This document shows positions 12,577 through 38,677 of a DNA stretch of 40,370 nucleotides, in pieces. Location of the stretch: positions 1 through 40,370 of IMG/VR virus record IMGVR_UViG_3300012001_000021; one strand, given 5' to 3'. The notes beneath the pieces are model-generated. The model saw nothing but the letters and a program-made list of their open reading frames with translations, was not told the DNA's origin and ran no database searches. Source of the DNA: a virus. Its lineage: Duplodnaviria > Caudoviricetes. The first letter of the stretch is position 1. Each line of letters starts with the position of its first letter. The position numbers and the translations under genes are program-made.

Positions 12577-12807
12577 TTAATTTTTAAGCTTTACTCTCTC
12601 ATGTTTAGCTAGTGTTTTTCTAATAAGTACATCAATCTTACCCATTTTCTTTAAGTCAGCCTTTGTCCTAGGTTTATTAGCAGCTTGGGGAATTACTTTC
12701 TCTTCTCGTCCACAATTTAGACACATCATTGTATATCCATAGGTAGGATCGTAATGAATATTGGTTTCAAAGCTGCGACATGTGAGACAAAGTAAGGCAA
12801 AAATCAT
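12577..12807 (-). CDS. Small Zn-ribbon protein
   Basis: CLTC...CLNCG. Confidence 0.6.
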   Translation of the reverse strand: MIFALLCLTCRSFETNIHYDPTYGYTMMCLNCGREEKVIPQAANKPRTKADLKKMGKIDVLIRKTLAKHERVKLKN

Positions 12808-13280
12808 CGTTTTAAATTAATATAAGAGGCTTTTTTACCTTCTAGTGCTAGTTTAGTTACTTCTTCTAGCTGTTTACTGTCTATAGGCCAACAAGATTGA
12901 ATATTCTCTAGTTGCTGCATAAACTTATAATCATCAGTTGCATCATGTGAGTATCCGTCATGAGTGTAATCTTTTCCTCTACCTGAACCTACCAGAATAA
13001 CAGGTATAGACTCATGATTTATATACGTTCTGATCGTCTCAAATCCTCTATAAAGTAAAAATGGTGTTATTGAATAACAGATAGGCTTCTTACCAGATAG
13101 CGCTAAACCTACACCTATATCTAGCAGTGTCTGTTCAGCGGCACCTACATTAATAAATCTATCGGGAAAGTCATCTCGTATCTTATCCCAAAGCCCAAAG
13201 CCTAGATCTGCAGTAACTACAATGATTGAATCATCTTTAAGCATGGCTTTATATAATAATTCAGCAAAATATTTACGCAT
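12804..13280 (-). CDS. Transketolase-like beta subunit (pyrimidine-binding domain only)
   Basis: TADLG, FPDRFINVGAAEQ, GLALSG, RGFETIR, DGYSH; lacks the transketolase C-terminal domain. Confidence 0.9.
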   Translation of the reverse strand: MRKYFAELLYKAMLKDDSIIVVTADLGFGLWDKIRDDFPDRFINVGAAEQTLLDIGVGLALSGKKPICYSITPFLLYRGFETIRTYINHESIPVILVGSGRGKDYTHDGYSHDATDDYKFMQQLENIQSCWPIDSKQLEEVTKLALEGKKASYINLKR

Positions 13281-13635
13281 GATTACTCCCTAATAAATCA
13301 ACCATATATTTAGAGAAATTATTACTCATATAATCCATTGTTTTATCGTAGGGCTTGTACCACTTCTGCCACTTGTTCTTAATAAGAAAATCTATAAATA
13401 CCTTAAACTCCTTACGGGGGAATGCGTGAGGTATAATATCCTCGATCTCTTGTGGGTGCTGCAAGTAATAATCAATCATATAGCTATCCCAGATAGCCTT
13501 GCACCAACATTTCTTGCCCTCACGCTCATAGTATCCGTCCATAGCTTTATATGATTTAAAATCACGCTTAAAGAAAATGCAGGTATTAAGCGCTTGATCT
13601 AGTTCTTGCCAAAATATTGTTGCTTCTTTTCTCAT
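13273..13635 (-). CDS. Hypothetical protein
   Basis: 120-aa ORF overlapping both neighbours. Confidence 0.7.
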   Translation of the reverse strand: MRKEATIFWQELDQALNTCIFFKRDFKSYKAMDGYYEREGKKCWCKAIWDSYMIDYYLQHPQEIEDIIPHAFPRKEFKVFIDFLIKNKWQKWYKPYDKTMDYMSNNFSKYMVDLLGSNHA

Positions 13636-13769
13636 ACTCGCTCCTCTACTCCAAATTTATCCTTAAGCTTTCTAAAAATATCCTTTTTAACTCGTGCTAC
13701 TTCTTTCTTAGTTAGGTTTCTATCAGTCGCCTGAAATATAATGCGATATGTTCTAAATTCTTTTGTCAT
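13632..13769 (-). CDS. 45-aa protein resembling the C-terminal half of the PheRS-beta FDX-ACB domain
   Basis: MTKEFRTYRIIFQATDRNLTKKEVARVKKDIFRKLKDKFGVEERV; ATGA overlaps at both ends; SD GAGGAGG. Confidence 0.6.
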   Translation of the reverse strand: MTKEFRTYRIIFQATDRNLTKKEVARVKKDIFRKLKDKFGVEERV

Positions 13770-13939
13770 AACTTTTTAAACTCCTCCTCATTAAGCATAT
13801 AAATAACTCCTGGTGGACAGTTTGGATTAGAGTAAACTGGATTCTTGCCGATAAAGCCGATAAGATCCTTTTCTGCTACGTGCATAGAGTTTTTAAACAA
13901 TGTCTCAAGCTGCTCGAGTGTTAAATTATTCTTTTTCAT
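13766..13939 (-). CDS. 57-aa protein with capsid A-domain-like motif
   Basis: MKKNNLTLEQLETLF...GKNPVYSNPNCPPGVIYMLNEEEF; ATGA overlaps at both ends. Confidence 0.6.
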   Translation of the reverse strand: MKKNNLTLEQLETLFKNSMHVAEKDLIGFIGKNPVYSNPNCPPGVIYMLNEEEFKKL

Positions 13940-14691
13940 TTTAATATCTCCATCGCTTCTTTGTGCTGTTCCTTGGACATTACAAGATAATGACCAATCT
14001 GACCCTTAAGAAAAGGAATATAATCAACATTAGTTTGGATTAAATGAAGGACGGGTGCCCTAGTATAATCTTTAAAATGCTTAATATTCTCCTTAAGAAG
14101 ATGGTGGGGTGTTGTAGTAGAAACATTCATGCCAAAAGCAGCAAAACGCTCTGATAGATCAACATGACTAGCAAATGGATGTCTCCATACATTTGTATTT
14201 AATATCTCTCCATAGGCTCCCCAGCCATTAAAATTACAAAATATTTTAAGATTAGTTAATTTCTGTTCAGCTATTACTCGTAAAGCTTCCCAAATACTCC
14301 CCTCAGCACATTCTCCATCTGAAATCAGACAGTAAACATTCTTTGATCTATCCGCTAATGCCATTCCGACTGCTATTCCTAGACCATGACCTAAGCTACC
14401 ACTTGAGCACCAGATACCGTTCTTCATATCCCTATTTGGGTGCACTCCGTGTAAATCAAATAATTCCTCAGCAGTTAATCCCGTATTTGAACTTCCATAC
14501 TTCTCTAATATTACATACAGAGCAAGTCCCGCGTGTCCGCTAGATAAAATGAAAGGTTCATCCTGTTTCTTAACGTGGTAAATTTCATCAATAATATCTA
14601 CAGCACCCAAGCACGAGCCCAGATGAGATAAGCACTTTTTATAAGAAATATCTATAATTCTTCGTTTTAAGTCCCTATTCGTTATTGGCAT
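13936..14691 (-). CDS. Transketolase-like alpha subunit (ThDP-binding N-terminal domain)
   Basis: HLGSCL, FILSSGHA, GSLGHGLGIAVGMALA, SDGECAEGSIWEA...N. Confidence 0.93.
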   Translation of the reverse strand: MPITNRDLKRRIIDISYKKCLSHLGSCLGAVDIIDEIYHVKKQDEPFILSSGHAGLALYVILEKYGSSNTGLTAEELFDLHGVHPNRDMKNGIWCSSGSLGHGLGIAVGMALADRSKNVYCLISDGECAEGSIWEALRVIAEQKLTNLKIFCNFNGWGAYGEILNTNVWRHPFASHVDLSERFAAFGMNVSTTTPHHLLKENIKHFKDYTRAPVLHLIQTNVDYIPFLKGQIGHYLVMSKEQHKEAMEILK

Positions 14692-15505
14692 CTACCATCC
14701 CTCCTATAATATCCGGTAACTTCTCTTTCTGTTTCCAGCCTAAAGATTTAATAAGTGTTGGATCAGCTACCCAGTCGTTAGTATCATACGAGCGCGGAGA
14801 ACCCAAACTTACCGCCGCAGTCTGTCCGACTGCTTTTTCTACCAACGCTCGTATGACTGAGTTAGTGGTTTTCTCTCCCGTGCCGATAGGGATTATCTTA
14901 CCAGCAAGAGAGGAGGCGTTATCAATAATTAACATCAAAGCATCAATAAAGTCATTTACTCCGATAAAGTCATGAGTCGGCTCAGCACTAAATGGCATCT
15001 CTTTACCCGTCTTGCAGCTCTCAATAAGACGAGGAATTAAGTGAATACGATGCTCTCCCTTGCCAATAACGGTATATGGTCTAACTGAGACAATAGGCTT
15101 GCCAAAGAGATCATAATACGCTTTACACAGTCTTTCCCCCGCTGCCTTCGTTGCGCTATAAATCGTTTCATTTGCCAGAGTTACTGATGAGGAGGAAAAA
15201 TTAACTAGTAGTTTAAAAGGAATATCTTTTGAGGCCTGAAGTAAATTAACCGTACCACCGATATTAGTGTTAATGGTCGTTACTATATCTTCCTGCGTTG
15301 ATAGATTACCGAATGCCGCTAGGTGAAAGATTACATCAGGTGACTTTAGTTGAAAGTAAACCTTAAGTAGATCGGGTCGTTGTAACATATCCCGTTCAAT
15401 AGGCCACACTATCCAGCCTTCTTTTTCTAGTCTATCTACTAAGTAAGTGCCTATAAAGCCCTTTGATCCCGATACACAAGCCACCTTTTTAACTACTTTT
15501 ACCAC
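14675..15505 (-). CDS. NAD-dependent nucleotide-sugar epimerase/reductase (extended SDR)
   Basis: GSKGFIG, VIFHLAA, FSSSS, YSATK, HDFIGVND. Confidence 0.9.
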   Translation of the reverse strand: MVKVVKKVACVSGSKGFIGTYLVDRLEKEGWIVWPIERDMLQRPDLLKVYFQLKSPDVIFHLAAFGNLSTQEDIVTTINTNIGGTVNLLQASKDIPFKLLVNFSSSSVTLANETIYSATKAAGERLCKAYYDLFGKPIVSVRPYTVIGKGEHRIHLIPRLIESCKTGKEMPFSAEPTHDFIGVNDFIDALMLIIDNASSLAGKIIPIGTGEKTTNSVIRALVEKAVGQTAAVSLGSPRSYDTNDWVADPTLIKSLGWKQKEKLPDIIGGMVDANNE

Positions 15506-16096: not shown

Positions 16097-16284
16097 AAAT
16101 AATCACCTCCTCCCAATCTCCTACTAGCTTTAAATGTCTCTTTAAACGCTTGTGGTATCTTACCCGTTCCTGAGCAAGTAGGGCATTTAATAAGTCTTAT
16201 TGAGGGATGTTTAAAACGAGGAGTAGCAGGCTTAAAATGTAAGCAACGGGTACAGTTTCTTTTTGCTTGATGTATGCAAGTCAT
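16093..16284 (-). CDS. Small Cys-rich protein
   Basis: CIH..CTRC and CPTCSGTG. Confidence 0.6.
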   Translation of the reverse strand: MTCIHQAKRNCTRCLHFKPATPRFKHPSIRLIKCPTCSGTGKIPQAFKETFKASRRLGGGDYL

Positions 16285-16904
16285 GCTTTCTTAGGCTTAA
16301 AGCTTGTCCCACATGAGGGGCAAGTTACCTCCTTATTATCAGTCTTCTTTTCTGGTGGCATCTCAACGCTTTTAATAAGAATATCTTGCAGCGTAGGTAA
16401 ACTGGAAAGATTAATCGCATAATCTACGGAATTAATATCAAACTGATCTATGGCTTGAAAAATATCAGTTGTATAATGTCCTGAGGTATCATTATCTGCT
16501 AGTCCATACTCCATGACAGCTTGCTCAATAGTTTTAAAGACCTTAGGCTGCTCTTCTTCATCAATGATTACGATTACTCCCCCGTCTTTATTAATAAAAT
16601 CTAAATAAGAGACTTTAGGAAGTTTTGCTTTCTCAATAATAATTGATGCTAGCTCTTCTGAGATATCTCTATTAATCTCTGTTTTAATATAGTCTTGGAT
16701 ATCAAACGGCTGCATCTGGGATATCTCTTTGTAGACTTGATAACGGGTATGACCTCCCACAATCATCTTCTGTTTAGTAACAAGGAGAGGTTTAAACTGT
16801 CCGAGAGTAATTATCTGTTTCTTTGTGCGTTGAAATGCCTCGGGAGAAATGTCCTTGTTGTTATGAGGGTTAAGCGTTAATTCGGTTAGTAATAAATGAT
16901 CCAT
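16281..16904 (-). CDS. ParB/Srx N-terminal domain protein
   Basis: LNPHN...GQFKPLLV...IVGGHTR...LADN; C-terminal CPSCG. Confidence 0.8.
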   Translation of the reverse strand: MDHLLLTELTLNPHNNKDISPEAFQRTKKQIITLGQFKPLLVTKQKMIVGGHTRYQVYKEISQMQPFDIQDYIKTEINRDISEELASIIIEKAKLPKVSYLDFINKDGGVIVIIDEEEQPKVFKTIEQAVMEYGLADNDTSGHYTTDIFQAIDQFDINSVDYAINLSSLPTLQDILIKSVEMPPEKKTDNKEVTCPSCGTSFKPKKA

Positions 16905-20595: not shown

Positions 20596-21426
20596 TTATT
20601 TATTAGCCTCTAATATCTCAATTAGTTCTTCTTTACCCATATCGTTTAAATCCTTAGTTGGTGTTTCTATTTTACCTTTTTGTTTAAGCGTCATAACCTC
20701 TAATTGAACCTTTGCCCTAGACCAATCTTTGTAAGGGTCTACAATCGTTTTCACGGGGGTTAAATTATCTGGGATAGAGTCTAGTACTATTTCTTCTTCA
20801 GGACTAGCTTGCTGCTCATCCTGCGGCGTTTCTTGGGTATCTGGTAAAACGGTTTGACGCGCCATATCTCCTTTATAACCGGTTCCATTACATTTTTCCC
20901 ATGTATCGTCTGGGTTTTTATGTCTATGGTCATAATAATGCCCCCCGTTAGGCGAAGTGCGTTCCTTCATCTCAATCTTGTGAAGCTCGCAATAGTGATC
21001 ACTTATGACAAGGGGTGTTTGTTTAGCGGCGCTGTGATTAGTAGCCTTTTCAGCATCATCATCTTCACTAGGGACGAAGACAAGGGATTGAAGTGAATAA
21101 CGACGTCCGTATGAAATAGCAGAGCCTAAATCCTGAGGATTGTTCTCTGACTTAACAGCAAGCCTCATCTGAGCGGATAGGAATTCACCTGATTCATGAA
21201 GAAGCATCGTTTCTACATAAGTTCCGTTTTCATCAGAAACGACGGGCTGGAGAATGGTAATCCCGTTTTCATTTAACGGTTCTTTACAAACCTCCATTAC
21301 TGCACCTAGGTCAGCGTAATTTGACTTAAAGAAGGGGTTAACTGCATCTTTCTTAGCTGCACCCATTTTCTTTTGCGCTGCAAGAAGTGCGATAGCGATT
21401 TTTGTGATTGTATTACTTGTTGTCAT
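20596..21426 (-). CDS. erf: ERF-family ssDNA annealing protein
   Basis: KKDAVNPFFKSNYADL, TMLLHESGE, PQDLGSAISYGRRYSL...EDDDAE; ATG at 21426 with SD AAGGAG. Confidence 0.92.
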   Translation of the reverse strand: MTTSNTITKIAIALLAAQKKMGAAKKDAVNPFFKSNYADLGAVMEVCKEPLNENGITILQPVVSDENGTYVETMLLHESGEFLSAQMRLAVKSENNPQDLGSAISYGRRYSLQSLVFVPSEDDDAEKATNHSAAKQTPLVISDHYCELHKIEMKERTSPNGGHYYDHRHKNPDDTWEKCNGTGYKGDMARQTVLPDTQETPQDEQQASPEEEIVLDSIPDNLTPVKTIVDPYKDWSRAKVQLEVMTLKQKGKIETPTKDLNDMGKEELIEILEANK

Positions 21427-21578
21427 ATATCTCCTTTGCAATCTCCAGACCTCTTTCAATTCCCATAATATAAGTTTGTCTAGTTATAGATATTAAGTAT
21501 TTACTAGACTTTGTATTTAACTTAAGATCTTCAGTTGCCTTAGCTATTAGAGCTATTGTCTTCTGATCCATTTTAAAC

Positions 21579-22508: not shown

Positions 22509-22952
22509 TTATTCACTTTCACCACTCTCAATTTCATCTGCTGAATCGATTTGTTTAGCGTTCATAATAAACTTTTTTACAGAAGGATATGCCCCATTGG
22601 CATCACGATCCCATAAGTATTTAGTCTCTGAATACCCAACTCTTTTAATAAGTTTTATTGCATAAGACAAAGATTGTTGATCTGACCAGTCTAGCTCATT
22701 TATTGGGCGTGAAAGCCATTCTGATATTTTTTCAGCTAAGAGCATTTCTTGGCTATTAAGATCTTGTTGTTGAGTTTCTCCTTTAGGTAAAATCCAGGTA
22801 AAGTTAGTTGAAAAAGCCCTATTGCTAAATTTCACTAATTTTGCTCCCTCTTCGGCAGCCCTTACTAATTCCTGCGCCTCTCTCTCTGTTAATTCAAACT
22901 TGTCTTGATAACCATAAGCTACGATATAATTATCCGATGTGTGTTGCGTCAT
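22509..22952 (-). CDS. Hypothetical protein coupled to the replication initiator
   Basis: ATG at 22952 with SD GGGAGGAG; overlaps the initiator end. Confidence 0.65.
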   Translation of the reverse strand: MTQHTSDNYIVAYGYQDKFELTEREAQELVRAAEEGAKLVKFSNRAFSTNFTWILPKGETQQQDLNSQEMLLAEKISEWLSRPINELDWSDQQSLSYAIKLIKRVGYSETKYLWDRDANGAYPSVKKFIMNAKQIDSADEIESGESE

Positions 22953-23607
22953 GTACTCCTCCCTTCTTGGTTTGTCCCGTCTCAATTTGTTTCTTAGCAT
23001 CACGTAAAACCCAATTACGAAGACCGGCTTTATAATCTTTATAGACTTTCCCTTTAGCAGCCATCCAGTTATCCATTTCTTCTTTAGATAACTTTACCAC
23101 CGAGAGAGGAATCTTATATTTATCTGCTATCTCTTGTAAATCCCCCTCAGATAAATCCCCCTTAACAATCCCCCTATTACTATTACTATTACTATTACTA
23201 TTACTATTAGGAGTATCTATGGGGTATAGATACTCTATCGATAGGGTATCTATTTGTCTTAGCTTATCAGCTAAATCGATAATCTCTTTAGGAATTTCTT
23301 TTAGTTGACTGTTTTTAGCAATTTCTAATTTACCCCCCTTAAAATTGTCGTATTTCTCTATATTTTTAACAATAACCCACCCATTATAAAAAAGAACTTT
23401 GCCTTTAAGAGATATTTTTGCCTTACCTAGTTGGGGCGTTGTTAATCCCGTCTCTACCAGAATTCTCCTATCGGAAAGCTCATAGATACCAGGAAGATTT
23501 ATATGCTCGTTAGTTATTACATAAATAAACAATAGTTTCTCAGACCAGTTTAGTTTTTCAAACCAGCCATCACCCCATATTCGTGTATGTATAGAACGTG
23601 TTTTCAT
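22930..23607 (-). CDS. Phage replication initiator (replisome organiser-like)
   Basis: RSIHTRIWGDGWFEKL...KLLFIYVITN...GIYEL..ETGL; SN linker; C-terminal YKDYKAGLRNW. Confidence 0.8.
   Translation of the reverse strand: MKTRSIHTRIWGDGWFEKLNWSEKLLFIYVITNEHINLPGIYELSDRRILVETGLTTPQLGKAKISLKGKVLFYNGWVIVKNIEKYDNFKGGKLEIAKNSQLKEIPKEIIDLADKLRQIDTLSIEYLYPIDTPNSNSNSNSNSNRGIVKGDLSEGDLQEIADKYKIPLSVVKLSKEEMDNWMAAKGKVYKDYKAGLRNWVLRDAKKQIETGQTKKGGVHDATHIG
23175..23253. repeat. Candidate replication origin inside the initiator gene
   Basis: (TATTAC)5 followed by overlapping palindromes 23211-23235 and 23226-23253. Confidence 0.6.
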
Positions 23608-23733
23608 AAGAAAAGCCCCATGTCTACGAGTGGTAAACACGAGGCTATTCCTACTTATAAGCCATTAAAAAGAGCCCTGTTCCCACTCGCTAGACTACAT
23701 ACCCAGTTAATACCAAATTAATCCACTTGTCAA
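23608..23733 (-). promoter_or_regulatory. Initiator promoter and terminator/antiterminator leader
   Basis: TTGACA at 23733-23728; 14-bp stem 23614-23646 plus T run; 23673-23695 is complementary to 23622-23646. Confidence 0.7.
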
Positions 23734-35081: not shown

Positions 35082-35549
35082 CTAATTAAGCTTGGCATAC
35101 TCCCCATAATATTTGAGAGCAGCGTTATTATAAGCAGTTATAGCATCCTCTCTTTTTATAAAACTTCCTAGATGATGCCTCAGCCTATTAACAACAATGT
35201 AAGCCCTCCACTTACCACTATCTTTCCTGAGATGTACCCCTCTATATCCTGAGGTATTATTTTTTTGAGGGTTCTTATTATGATTATTTAAGTGATAAGT
35301 AGTGAGTCTTAAATTTAACTTAGTACAGTTCAATTTATCAAGATTAATATGATCTATATATTCACCTTTCTTGACTCCTAAGACTTCTCTATGAAGAAAG
35401 ACTGTATTTCGCTTTTTAGTTAATGGGTCTGTGAAATTACGAACTGCATAGCCAGTATGGTGATAATACCACTTATGTTTGCTTAACCTCTCAAAATCAT
35501 CGCTGTCAACTAAAACAACCCTATTTTGAGTTAATAGTATCTTCTTCAT
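35082..35549 (-). CDS. HNH-AP2 homing endonuclease
   Basis: LHREV...IDHINLDKLN...NLR; AP2 domain SGYRGV...KWRAYI...HLGSF. Confidence 0.92.
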   Translation of the reverse strand: MKKILLTQNRVVLVDSDDFERLSKHKWYYHHTGYAVRNFTDPLTKKRNTVFLHREVLGVKKGEYIDHINLDKLNCTKLNLRLTTYHLNNHNKNPQKNNTSGYRGVHLRKDSGKWRAYIVVNRLRHHLGSFIKREDAITAYNNAALKYYGEYAKLN

Positions 35550-36699
35550 AAACTTCCGCTTGAACCTTCTCTAAGAAAGGGATAAGATGTGTCTTCATTA
35601 CATACTCCGTGTCATATTGCATAATACTTAGCCTACAAAATACACCCATTTTCTTACGATCATCTTTAAAAATTTGCTCCATATGCATATACAGAGAATG
35701 ACTATCTACAACACCCACATATGAGAGTAGTGGTGTGAATCGTTTATAAAGCACCTCTGTAAGATATCCATTTTTGCCTGGCTCGATTAACTCTGTCATT
35801 GAGGTAAAGTCATTTGCAATTACTGGTATTCCACAGGCCATAGCTTCAACAATAGGAACACCCCACCCCTCGGACACTGAGGGAGCTAGTAAGCAATCAA
35901 AGGTAGAATAAATCTTAGCCATATGCTCTTTACTGATCTTGTAGGCTAGATCATAAGGAGGAGGATAGAAAACTACACTTGGATTAAGACCTAAAAACTT
36001 GACGTATTCATTAATAGGGAATCCACCGGGATTATCAACCGCTACATGAAAGTAGATAGCAGATTTAGGATGCTCTCTGTGAAAGACAGCAAAGGCATCT
36101 AATACCTCTTGAAAGGACTTACGAGGAGGATTATCCTTATTAGCCGCCACCATACCAAATAAGAAAACGTCTTTAGGAATACCAAGTAACTCCCGCATCT
36201 CATCTTTCTTATATGGCTTAAATATCTTAGTATCTACCATAAGAGGAAGATAGGTAGAATGGACACCGTTATCGGCGAGTTGTTTTTGAGCGAACTTTGA
36301 ATAGGCTAGAATACGATAGGCCATTTTAGCCCGTTGTAAAACAGCAGGGGGAATAGGATCATGATCAACGGGAAGCCATGGAATCCAGCGCTTAACATGC
36401 TGAAGGGCATTAGGATCTAGTGTCCAGATGTCCTGATTAGAAAGAGTGATATCAGTATTGAAATCCTTACCATGCTCAATCATGGCATCTAACCCCCAGA
36501 TATCGGCTATTCTAGGATAGTGCTTAACACCCTCAAGCTCTACAATCCCTCCCTCTAAGCCGTAAAAGTCTATATGTGCCTGAGTCCAGCCATCTTTTGT
36601 TAAGGCTGGTAAAACGTACGCTTGCTGCTGAGCATATCCCGAATTTGACCAAAAAGCATTGGAGTTCCATAAAATCTTTAAACGTCTATCTTTCTTCAT
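35521..36699 (-). CDS. Glycosyltransferase, GT4-like (GT-B)
   Basis: SGYAQQ, VDTKIFKP, RKS, SVSEGWGVPIVEAMACGIPVI. Confidence 0.92.
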   Translation of the reverse strand: MKKDRRLKILWNSNAFWSNSGYAQQQAYVLPALTKDGWTQAHIDFYGLEGGIVELEGVKHYPRIADIWGLDAMIEHGKDFNTDITLSNQDIWTLDPNALQHVKRWIPWLPVDHDPIPPAVLQRAKMAYRILAYSKFAQKQLADNGVHSTYLPLMVDTKIFKPYKKDEMRELLGIPKDVFLFGMVAANKDNPPRKSFQEVLDAFAVFHREHPKSAIYFHVAVDNPGGFPINEYVKFLGLNPSVVFYPPPYDLAYKISKEHMAKIYSTFDCLLAPSVSEGWGVPIVEAMACGIPVIANDFTSMTELIEPGKNGYLTEVLYKRFTPLLSYVGVVDSHSLYMHMEQIFKDDRKKMGVFCRLSIMQYDTEYVMKTHLIPFLEKVQAEVYEEDTINSK

Positions 36700-37493
36700 T
36701 TTTTATCTCCTACTAAATAATCAAAGTGCTTAATTAAATCCTCATTAAACTCAACCCGATAGTTAAACTTCTTAACTGGACCACCCCAGTGATATAATTT
36801 CACGAGTATATCGGTATTAGGATAACCACTCTCAGACTTAGGTAAAATAACCTTAGCCTCGCTCCTAATCTCTTCGTTATTAATTAGCTTCATTCTTAAC
36901 CCTTCGCCCTTAGCGACGATTCCATGCCATCTATGCTCTGTTTCAAATTCGTCCATTGCATCAAAACACTTAACATTATAAAGACCAAACTTACAAAGAA
37001 TATTTAAAATATCCTGTTCACGATACTGAAGATTTAAAAAGATATCATCTTGAAAACAAAGCTTCTTCCAGTGTTCTATAAAGGCTTTAGAACGCATAGC
37101 GACTAACCCACAGTTAAAGTATTTAGTACAGTCGATAATATACGTTGTAATAGGACCATACTGCTTAAAGTCAGTCGGGTTGAAGTTAAGTACAGTCCCA
37201 ACGTCGTAATCGGCATCTTCCCATAAATGCTTAAGATCCCCACAAACTAGTTGGTCTATATCAAACCCGATCACTGTCTCGTATTGGTACATTAATTCTG
37301 AGGCTATAATAGGCTTTTGACGGTAAAAGAAATGAGGATCTTGAGCTAAACGCTTCTTGATATCTTCACCGCATATTTCAACTAAAGGGAGTTCTTCTTC
37401 AGAGTGGAATTTACGAAGACTATTTTTGAATTTACGAGCATCTTCTTTGTGAGACTCGTCATAGGTAATAAAGGCTACTACTGGTTTTTTCAT
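36696..37493 (-). CDS. Glycosyltransferase, GT8-like (GT-A)
   Basis: NSLRKFH, FDIDQLVCGDL, YFNCGLV, EQDILN, LYHWGG. Confidence 0.8.
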   Translation of the reverse strand: MKKPVVAFITYDESHKEDARKFKNSLRKFHSEEELPLVEICGEDIKKRLAQDPHFFYRQKPIIASELMYQYETVIGFDIDQLVCGDLKHLWEDADYDVGTVLNFNPTDFKQYGPITTYIIDCTKYFNCGLVAMRSKAFIEHWKKLCFQDDIFLNLQYREQDILNILCKFGLYNVKCFDAMDEFETEHRWHGIVAKGEGLRMKLINNEEIRSEAKVILPKSESGYPNTDILVKLYHWGGPVKKFNYRVEFNEDLIKHFDYLVGDKK

Positions 37494-37930
37494 AAATTAA
37501 TCCTTTGTCTATCATGAATACCGTCATATTTGTGGTGGCACTTAGTACATAACCTAAGCCAGTCAGTTAATTCTCTTGTATACAGTCCTGATTTATTAGC
37601 CCACTCAAACTTTTTAGCCGAATCTGTGCCACAATGATCACAGAGAGAGGGTTTGCCAAGACGCTTATATATCCACCTATGCAGTCCTGAATATCCTACC
37701 TTATCACCCTTCCATTGCTGATTGTCGCTTTCCATATTCTCACCCTTTTTAAAGATAATAGATCCTTTAGGGACTATACCCTTCTTAAACTCTGTATTGG
37801 GTGAGTTTCTCCTACCTAAGGCTGCCTTGTTAGCGCATGGCTTTGAACAATACTTCCCCCTATTATGATGGAGTACATCCCAATCACTCTTTTCAAATAC
37901 CTTATTACAAAGTAAACAAATCCTAGTCAT
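37490..37930 (-). CDS. HNH-type endonuclease with N-terminal Zn finger
   Basis: Start MTRICLLC; KYCSKPC, GYSGLHRWI, CDHCG, EWAN, LCTKCH. Confidence 0.8.
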   Translation of the reverse strand: MTRICLLCNKVFEKSDWDVLHHNRGKYCSKPCANKAALGRRNSPNTEFKKGIVPKGSIIFKKGENMESDNQQWKGDKVGYSGLHRWIYKRLGKPSLCDHCGTDSAKKFEWANKSGLYTRELTDWLRLCTKCHHKYDGIHDRQRINL

Positions 37931-38589
37931 AAATCCTCTCTTATACAACCTAAAACATATGCTTCTGTAGCCATTTTTTTTAAGGTGTACCCTGCATCTC
38001 GTAAAGCTGCTACGCCTTGGCTGTAATTTACTTGAGGCCATGCATGAAACTCCGTCACCATAGCATCAATCTTTTTAGCCGTCTCTTTAAAGTCTTGACT
38101 TGCCAAAATTCCAAATTCAGATCCCTCACAATCTAACTTACAAAAATCTATCTTCTCTATCTTGTTCTCTTTCATCAAGACATCAAGTGTTACTGTTCGT
38201 ACCTTTTCGCTCGTTCCGGCGTTATCCATACCATGAAGTAAAGAGTGAGCCGTAACATTCTTAGAGTGGAAAAGCTCCATCTCGCCGTTTTCATGAGAGA
38301 GGGCATAAGGTAAGACGGTTACTTTATCCTCAATACCATTAAACTTAGTCATCTTTTTAATAGTCTCAATATGTCCCTTACTAGGCTCAACGATATAACA
38401 ATGTTTAGCCCCGTTAAGAATAGCAAAGTAAGTAAACAGTCCCACATTTCCACCAACATCAAGCACAATACCATCTTTAATATATTTCATATAAGGAGCG
38501 TATACCTGATCTATGAAGATTTCTTTGAGAATATGGGGAATGTAGGATGACGTAAAATCGTCAAAAAAGATAGCTTGTTGTGTAGACAT
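37927..38589 (-). CDS. FkbM-family SAM methyltransferase
   Basis: VLDVGGNVG, VEP, VTLD, IDFCKLDCEGSE, EFH; start probably MSTQQ. Confidence 0.92.
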   Translation of the reverse strand: MSTQQAIFFDDFTSSYIPHILKEIFIDQVYAPYMKYIKDGIVLDVGGNVGLFTYFAILNGAKHCYIVEPSKGHIETIKKMTKFNGIEDKVTVLPYALSHENGEMELFHSKNVTAHSLLHGMDNAGTSEKVRTVTLDVLMKENKIEKIDFCKLDCEGSEFGILASQDFKETAKKIDAMVTEFHAWPQVNYSQGVAALRDAGYTLKKMATEAYVLGCIREDL

Positions 38590-38677
38590 GTTGTTAATGT
38601 TTACTAGGGGCAAGATAGTCTCGCCCCCGTAAAACATTTATCTACTGTATCAAGTAAAACAATAGATTGTCAAGACA

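What the first reader, a model, noticed from the sequence alone, without database searches (positions are those of the whole stretch)
13632..13769. 45-aa mini-protein resembling half of the PheRS-beta anticodon-binding domain
Seen: TYRIIFQATDRNLTKKEVARVKKDIFRKLKDKFGVEER follows the PheT C-terminal pattern as I recall it (x-R-hh-FQ-xx-DRTLTxxEV...I...L..KFG.ELR). It is a beta-alpha-beta half of a ferredoxin fold, very basic, and coupled by ATGA overlaps. Inference: it may homodimerise into a tRNA-binding module or act as a host-protein mimic or decoy.
Basis: partly seen in the sequence, partly recalled or inferred. Interest (0 to 1): 0.75.

Follow-up and report, generated by a model that had tools for sequence, protein, structure and literature searches.

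The report
Captured host pheT tail in phage
A 45-codon gene in a 40-kb phage is the detached tail of a bacterial phenylalanine-tRNA synthetase gene, found in no other phage searched and lacking three of the four anticodon-gripping residues, so it is likely a recombination leftover that serves as filler in an operon rather than a tRNA-binding protein.

Summary
13632-13769 (-) is an intact 45-aa ORF matching the last 38 of 94 positions of Pfam FDX-ACB (E 3e-6, under the cut-off). A profile of 41 Microgenomates-type PheT tails, built without it, scores it at E 9e-15. It is a singleton: almost all other matches examined were PheT C-termini, and related phages lack it (0 of 42 records, 0 of 101 loci). 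Three of four G34-contact residues are absent or changed. Its charge is ordinary for PheT tails. ATGA overlaps are common here (8 of 46 pairs), and its last strand now encodes the next gene's ribosome-binding site. Three Microgenomates genomes hold detached pheT tails starting at nearly the same codon, beside inserted genes, like the icd tail displaced by prophage e14. Best reading (0.6): a captured host gene end, likely kept open as a translational spacer between split transketolase genes. A folded mini-protein with a new job is not excluded (0.2). It points to a Microgenomates host.

The parts
13632..13769 (-). 45-aa ORF (P0001), detached 3' end of a Microgenomates-type pheT gene
13644..13763 (-). 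Part homologous to PheT (residues 3-42; strand 3, helix 2 and start of strand 4 of FDX-ACB); clear similarity from residue 6-7
13781..13789 (-). Shine-Dalgarno-like GAG run in the end of the 57-aa ORF, 11 nt before the mini-ORF start
13641..13646 (-). Codons 42-43 of the mini-ORF, which read as a Shine-Dalgarno site 5 nt before the start of the 120-aa ORF; codon 43 replaces a conserved L/I of PheT with E
13766..13939 (-). 57-aa ORF without relatives found, first gene of the insert
13273..13635 (-). 120-aa ORF without relatives found, last gene of the insert
13936..14691 (-). Transketolase N-terminal half, upstream flank of the insert
12804..13280 (-). Transketolase pyrimidine-binding half, downstream flank; adjacent to the N-half in most related phages

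Best explanation
The ORF is the last ~40 codons of a Microgenomates-type pheT gene, likely picked up by the phage lineage through recombination at the host pheT 3' end and likely kept open as a translational spacer in a coupled operon, not as a tRNA-Phe-binding protein. Shown: the homology and its lineage type; the end at the natural pheT stop position; the loss of three of four G34 contacts; the singleton status in what was searched; the position in a three-ORF insert between transketolase halves; and detached pheT tails with almost the same start in three host genomes. Inferred: (1) an insertion at the host pheT 3' end displaced or replaced the gene end, as prophage e14 does with icd, and this piece entered the phage; (2) it gained an ATG overlapping the upstream stop, and its codons 42-43 were recast as the ribosome-binding site of the next gene; (3) ribosomes would pass from the 57-aa ORF through it to the 120-aa ORF and transketolase-C, which would favour an open frame whatever the peptide does; (4) the peptide would be a helix with two unpaired strands and no anticodon specificity.
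For: Singleton. phmmer over 1.84 billion representatives gave only itself and two PheT C-terminal fragments at E <= 0.001. Its 90% cluster has 1 member. 17 of 17 genome and metagenome matches end long PheT frames, 14 of them the short-hairpin Microgenomates type. Of the 10 other short proteins found with alignment A3, 9 carry further upstream PheT sequence with differing starts. Related phages lack it: 0 of 42 whole records and 0 of 101 viral loci. The two transketolase halves are adjacent in 19 of 21 loci; 13 of 66 have gaps over 200 bp, and those inspected hold unrelated ORFs. Anticodon site: G34 contacts are D729, Y731, S742 and R780 (PMC9976931; numbering). The D lies one residue before the start (D in 39 of 41 PheT). 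Y/F/H (41 of 41) is T, and T/S (33 of 41) is F. L/I at position 43 (36 of 41) is E and coincides with a Shine-Dalgarno site. Host parallels: G157, G110 and G190 each carry a detached pheT tail 0.3-2.4 kb downstream of an intact pheT, with similarity starting at positions 10, 7 and 12 and with inserted genes between. The uninterrupted state is pheT directly followed by a convergent PBP gene (G052). Precedent: e14 separates a 163-bp icd 3' end (PMC6379469).
Against: All 11 hydrophobic-core columns stay hydrophobic and several changes are conservative. In a neutral-decay simulation matched to its identity (10-15 substitutions), 55-65% of copies stayed open; of those, 8-32% scored as well and 18-23% kept the core. 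That is a joint chance of about 0.04-0.2, a mild hint of selection on the protein. It has its own Shine-Dalgarno-like site and ATG, and it starts at the hairpin between the two halves of the fold. Detached tails are rare in hosts: 3 of 262 matching genomes in the class sample, 1 of 237 in the order sample. Their similar start points are partly set by the detection limit. No integrase, resolvase or serine recombinase was found in this genome, so the capture route is not shown. The ESM Atlas lists clusters of 39-51-aa FDX-ACB-like proteins with 81-148 members whose context is unknown.
Confidence: 0.6

Rival explanations
1. The peptide is a selected mini-protein: two copies pair their strands to rebuild a symmetric ferredoxin-like fold, or it binds host PheRS or RNA as a decoy, with a specificity other than the Phe anticodon.
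For: It starts at the hairpin between the two beta-alpha-beta halves. The hydrophobic core is fully kept and neutral decay is mildly disfavoured (joint about 0.04-0.2). It has a Shine-Dalgarno-like site, an ATG and coupling on both sides. The end branch is long, 2.06 against a median of 0.36, on 45 columns. The Atlas has short FDX-ACB-like clusters at score 0.93.
Against: No second phage copy was found. Strand 4 has lost its conserved L/I. Three of four G34 contacts are gone. The charge is ordinary for a PheT tail. Host genomes make similar fragments as by-products.
Confidence: 0.2
2. The stretch is a working attP-type replacement end: the phage integrates into host pheT near codon 6-12 of this tail and supplies a new C-terminus, so selection acts on it as part of PheT.
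For: It ends at the natural PheT stop position and similarity begins where the host duplicates begin. This would explain the conserved core. 2 of 5 related phage records tested carry a tyrosine integrase. The e14/icd precedent exists.
Against: No integrase or recombinase in this terminally repeated genome. The site is in mid-operon between transketolase halves. Its leave-one-out score is near the bottom of real PheT tails (65 vs 105 +/- 17; 1 of 41 lower), with changes at near-invariant R28 and K44 and at conserved L/I43. The best nucleotide identity to a sampled host is 62%. No closely related prophage was found in 401 class genomes; of the two distant terminase hits, the one examined is not at pheT.
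Confidence: 0.1
3. It is a neutral, decaying fragment whose open frame is luck, with no role even as a spacer.
For: In simulation 55-65% of tails stay open at this divergence. It is a singleton.
Against: Both ends overlap neighbours by exactly ATGA and codons 42-43 form the next gene's Shine-Dalgarno site, which suggests the DNA was fitted into the operon.
Confidence: 0.08
4. The likeness to PheT is chance convergence of a basic amphipathic peptide.
For: The score is below the Pfam gathering cut-off.
Against: E 9e-15 against an independent PheT-tail profile; 121 of 401 Microgenomates-class genomes match at E <= 0.01, nearly all in long frames of PheT size.
Confidence: 0.02

Closest known systems
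FDX-ACB / B8 anticodon-binding domain of bacterial PheRS beta subunit (Pfam PF03147), Microgenomates short-hairpin type
   Same: Sequence of strand 3, helix 2 and the start of strand 4; up to about 50% identity; ends at the same place.
   Different: Only the second half; stand-alone in a phage; D729 absent, Y731 and S742 equivalents changed; conserved L/I of strand 4 replaced.
Displaced or replacement gene 3' ends at integration sites (icd' of prophage e14, 163 bp; PMC6379469, passages read)
   Same: A detached 3' end of a conserved host gene of similar size (about 120 bp here), diverged from the host copy, ending at the natural stop.
   Different: No integrase found in this genome; lies inside an operon, not at a known element boundary; has its own start and ribosome-binding site.
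Detached pheT tails in Microgenomates genomes G157, G110, G190
   Same: Similarity starts within the same seven codons (positions 6-12); G157's copy is a 40-aa ORF that passes the FDX-ACB cut-off.
   Different: Chromosomal, 0.3-2.4 kb from an intact pheT, beside a REP-type transposase and DUF218 gene, a short gene on the other strand, or a PqqD cluster; each has an unrelated N-terminus.

Membership tests
FDX-ACB domain (PF03147) | Sequence homology to the family profile | tested here: met
   E 2.9e-6 to Pfam; E 9e-15 to a PheT-only profile
FDX-ACB domain (PF03147) | Score above the gathering cut-off (31.1 bits) | tested here: not met
   28.1 bits
FDX-ACB domain (PF03147) | Complete four-strand, two-helix ferredoxin fold in one chain | tested here: not met
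   Model positions 57-94 of 94 only; no first half in upstream frames; the AlphaFold monomer shows only helix 21-39
FDX-ACB domain (PF03147) | G34-contact residues D729, Y731, S742, R780 | tested here: not met
   D absent, Y to T, S/T to F; R44 kept. Mapping; R780 placed through the terminal LR of the E. coli chain, which is inferred
FDX-ACB domain (PF03147) | Binds the tRNA-Phe anticodon | not testable with these tools
   Needs a binding assay
att-site replacement 3' end (e14/icd type) | Detached 3' end of a conserved host gene, ending at the natural stop | tested here: met
att-site replacement 3' end (e14/icd type) | Integrase on the same element, next to the site | tested here: not met
   No PF00589, PF00239 or PF07508 match at E <= 1; neighbours are transketolase halves
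att-site replacement 3' end (e14/icd type) | Core sequence nearly identical to the host gene at the crossover | tested here: inconclusive
   True host not sampled; best nucleotide identity 62% over codons 6-40
Conserved phage mini-protein family | Copies in several phages under purifying selection | tested here: not met
   No second phage copy; single-sequence selection test inconclusive

The most novel reading that the evidence does not exclude
A phage of Microgenomates bacteria has domesticated exactly one half of the host's PheRS anticodon-binding domain into a homodimeric ferredoxin-fold mini-protein with a new RNA or protein target: a natural return of a fold to its half-size unit, born from the pheT 3' ends that insertions shed in these hosts, with the short FDX-ACB-like Atlas clusters as its wider family.
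Probability: 0.12. Interest if true: 0.75.

Novelty: new variant of a known kind. Interest (0 to 1): 0.3.

Why it matters
On the likely reading it matters modestly. It is a host fingerprint that ties an unassigned 40-kb phage with split transketolase and sugar-modifying genes to Microgenomates (Patescibacteria). It also shows one way phage orphan genes arise: a shed host gene end gains a start and is fitted into an operon. The side result, detached pheT tails with nearly the same start in three host genomes, hints at an insertion site in the pheT 3' end of this lineage. If the peptide proved to be a folded dimer with a target, it would be a natural half-ferredoxin protein and a new kind of phage mimic of the translation machinery.

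Tried and rejected
Homodimer prediction with alignment A3 gave no verdict (ipSAE 0.02, 0.02; mark 0.42); it is no evidence either way. No RNA holder was listed for the region, which says nothing on expression. Reads gave no variants inside the ORF, so no population dN/dS was possible. The search for longer relatives by shared words found 5 candidates and none scored. The scan of viral contigs with A2 matched 232 stretches and confirmed none. tblastn of 50,697 GenBank phage records gave 5 hits at E 1-2 inside a Cronobacter/Kosakonia phage virion gene, taken as chance. The one FDX-ACB hit among 22 related phage records (G005, E 0.001, model 11-60) lies in a 118-aa ORF that I read as RusA-like from memory; rejected. 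Second matches in G358 and G613 are weak and inside long unrelated frames; those in G025 and G318, and the short frames of G153 and G562, are contig-edge PheT pieces; G672's second match (284-aa frame) was not opened. A frameshifted first half upstream was not found. No PBP-gene or other host DNA was found beside the ORF. The 120-aa and 57-aa neighbours gave no usable relatives. Repeats around the insert are short chance-level pairs. Codon-position identity to hosts (0.63/0.65/0.40, against 0.63/0.73/0.41 among PheT) cannot date the capture. The tree on 45 columns does not place the ORF. The distant terminase 36 kb from pheT in G052 belongs to another element. No tRNA genes are in the window. 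Earlier scan notes held nothing.

Full report
Observation. The window is a whole virus record of 40,370 bases with direct terminal repeats. It encodes terminase subunits, portal, a major head protein, an Erf-like recombinase and no tRNA. The finding is a minus-strand ORF of 45 aa, P0001. Pfam FDX-ACB matches residues 7-44 to positions 57-94 of 94 (E 2.9e-6; 28.1 bits, cut-off 31.1). A profile of 41 PheT tails built without P0001 scores it 54.4 bits, E 9.4e-15. No upstream frame holds the first half of the domain. Contigs from three runs of one study agree with the window letter for letter where they cover the ORF; two may be its source.

Where it comes from. phmmer over 1.84 billion representatives returned, at E <= 0.001, only itself and two C-terminal PheT fragments, one clustering with a 652-aa PheT. 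All 17 are the ends of long PheT frames, two of them cut by a contig edge; 14 have a shortened hairpin between strands 2 and 3. Seven of the 13 genome records are titled Patescibacteria, Microgenomates or Levyibacteriota. One titled Acidobacteria (G026) falls in the same order as a Levyibacteriota genome. In 401 genomes of that class, 121 match P0001 at E <= 0.01. The host assignment rests on this gene alone: a terminase search of the same 401 genomes found only 2 distant hits.

Is it a family? The word-index search found only itself. With a 15-row alignment, 11 of 129 short candidates scored: itself, 9 proteins that carry more upstream PheT sequence with differing starts, as cut PheT genes would, and one weak partial match with an unrelated N-terminus (P0014). 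Their genomic context could not be fetched. Related phages were gathered through the transketolase halves and terminase. None of 101 viral loci has a profile match. Of 50 loci submitted, 42 records were held and none matches. 22 records gave one spurious Pfam hit. Loci L132-L157 were checked mostly as loci, not as whole records. In 19 of 21 loci the two transketolase halves are adjacent. In a wider set 13 of 66 have a gap over 200 bp; those inspected hold unrelated ORFs, some also joined by ATGA overlaps. So the gap takes in orphan genes, and P0001 is the middle one of three. Against this picture, the ESM Atlas lists clusters of 39-51 aa with 81-148 members, 36-57% carrying FDX-ACB, at score 0.93; I could not see whether they are cut genes.

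Can it read an anticodon? In T. thermophilus PheRS, G34 is held by Asp729, Ser742 and Arg780 and stacks on Tyr731 (PMC9976931, passages read). Numbering and alignment A3 put D729 one residue before P0001's start (D in 39 of 41 tails), Y731 at position 2 (Y/F/H in 41 of 41; T here) and S742 at position 5 (T/S in 33 of 41; F here). Only the terminal arginine is kept, and its mapping is inferred through the E. coli chain. Net charge +7 lies within the PheT range (+5.1 +/- 3.3). The AlphaFold monomer has one helix, 21-39, and no strands (mean pLDDT 82.9, pTM 0.51), as expected of strands that lack their partners.

Selection. P0001 scores 65 against the PheT profile; held-out PheT tails score 105 +/- 17 and 1 of 41 is lower. 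The 41 were picked as best matches to P0001, which favours it; three long-hairpin tails and one mis-cut locus were dropped. All 11 core columns stay hydrophobic. With 10-15 random substitutions, 55-65% of simulated tails stay open, and of these 8-32% score as well and 18-23% keep the core. Neutral decay is therefore mildly disfavoured, not rejected, and the real donor is unsampled (best nucleotide identity 62%). The sharpest change, L/I to E at 43, has a DNA-level reason: codons 42-43 form a Shine-Dalgarno site 5 nt before the next start. Such sites precede 15 of 47 listed genes against a background of 12%, and ATGA overlaps join 8 of 46 adjacent pairs.

A source for the fragment. With A3, 262 of 401 class genomes match and 6 have two matches. 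Three are detached pheT tails just downstream of an intact pheT. In G157 a DUF218 gene and a REP-type tyrosine transposase lie between, and the distal copy is a 40-aa ORF abutting the convergent PBP gene. In G110 a short gene on the other strand lies between. In G190 a PqqD cluster lies between and part of the PBP 3' end is duplicated too. Similarity to their own pheT begins at positions 10, 7 and 12 in P0001 numbering; in the phage it is clear from 6-7. G052 shows the uninterrupted state, pheT followed directly by the PBP gene. This resembles prophage e14, which separates a 163-bp icd 3' end and supplies a replacement (PMC6379469, passages read). The limits: such tails are rare (1 of 237 in an order-wide sample), shorter ones may escape detection, and this phage shows no integrase, resolvase or serine recombinase, although 2 of 5 relatives tested have a tyrosine integrase. 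The route of capture is inferred.

Mechanism. Most likely (0.6) a shed pheT end entered the phage, gained an ATG overlapping the upstream stop, and had its last codons recast as the next gene's ribosome-binding site. It would stay open because translation is coupled through it to the 120-aa ORF and transketolase-C. Rivals: a selected mini-protein (0.2), a working att replacement end (0.1), a neutral fragment (0.08), chance (0.02).

Literature. Eight full-text searches showed, in their listings, no paper on stand-alone FDX-ACB halves in phages or on pheT 3' ends as insertion sites in Patescibacteria. PMC10250203 (one passage read) reports defence systems clustering near pheT in Pseudomonas aeruginosa, at a region that also holds a tRNA gene. 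Subscription journals and supplements were not covered. The strand and helix naming of the fold, and translational coupling at ATGA overlaps, are from my own knowledge.

Verdict. Real and correctly recognised homology; function as a tRNA-binding module or decoy not supported; new variant of a known kind; interest 0.3.

Noticed in passing
window 12804-15505 and loci L002-L024, L088-L164: An epimerase, transketolase-N, transketolase-C cassette recurs in many viral contigs, in several next to the terminase genes; the window also has glycosyltransferases and an FkbM methyltransferase (35521-38637), suggesting a sugar-modification pathway.
   Followed up: partly
L073:2390-5913 (G157), L086 (G110), L085 (G190): The junction between pheT and the convergent PBP gene in Microgenomates takes insertions that leave a second, diverged pheT 3' end starting at nearly the same codon; G190 also duplicates part of the PBP 3' end.
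   Followed up: partly
L086:844-903, 1034-1094, 1365-1422: The pheT gene of G110 holds three copies of a ~55-bp repeat, 93-100% alike, inserted in frame within the coding sequence.
   Followed up: no
L026-L040: Microgenomates-type PheT has a hairpin about ten residues shorter than typical bacterial PheT in its anticodon-binding domain and is only ~650 aa long.
   Followed up: partly
L026 (G026), L027, L033: Records titled Acidobacteria or Gammaproteobacteria carry Microgenomates-type PheT; G026 falls in the same order as a Levyibacteriota genome, so at least that title looks wrong.
   Followed up: partly
window 13632-13769: Weak matches to DUF6981 (E 0.002) and PDB 4hlb, a 115-aa uncharacterised protein (E 0.014), which may be a stand-alone relative of FDX-ACB.
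   Followed up: no
protein P0014 (58 aa, 1,153-bp contig): Unrelated N-terminus followed by a PheT tail from about position 18; may be a shorter detached end or a frameshift.
   Followed up: no
window 16281-16904, 20596-21459, 22930-23640: ParB-like protein, Erf-like recombinase and DnaD-like replication initiator are present while no integrase was found.
   Followed up: partly
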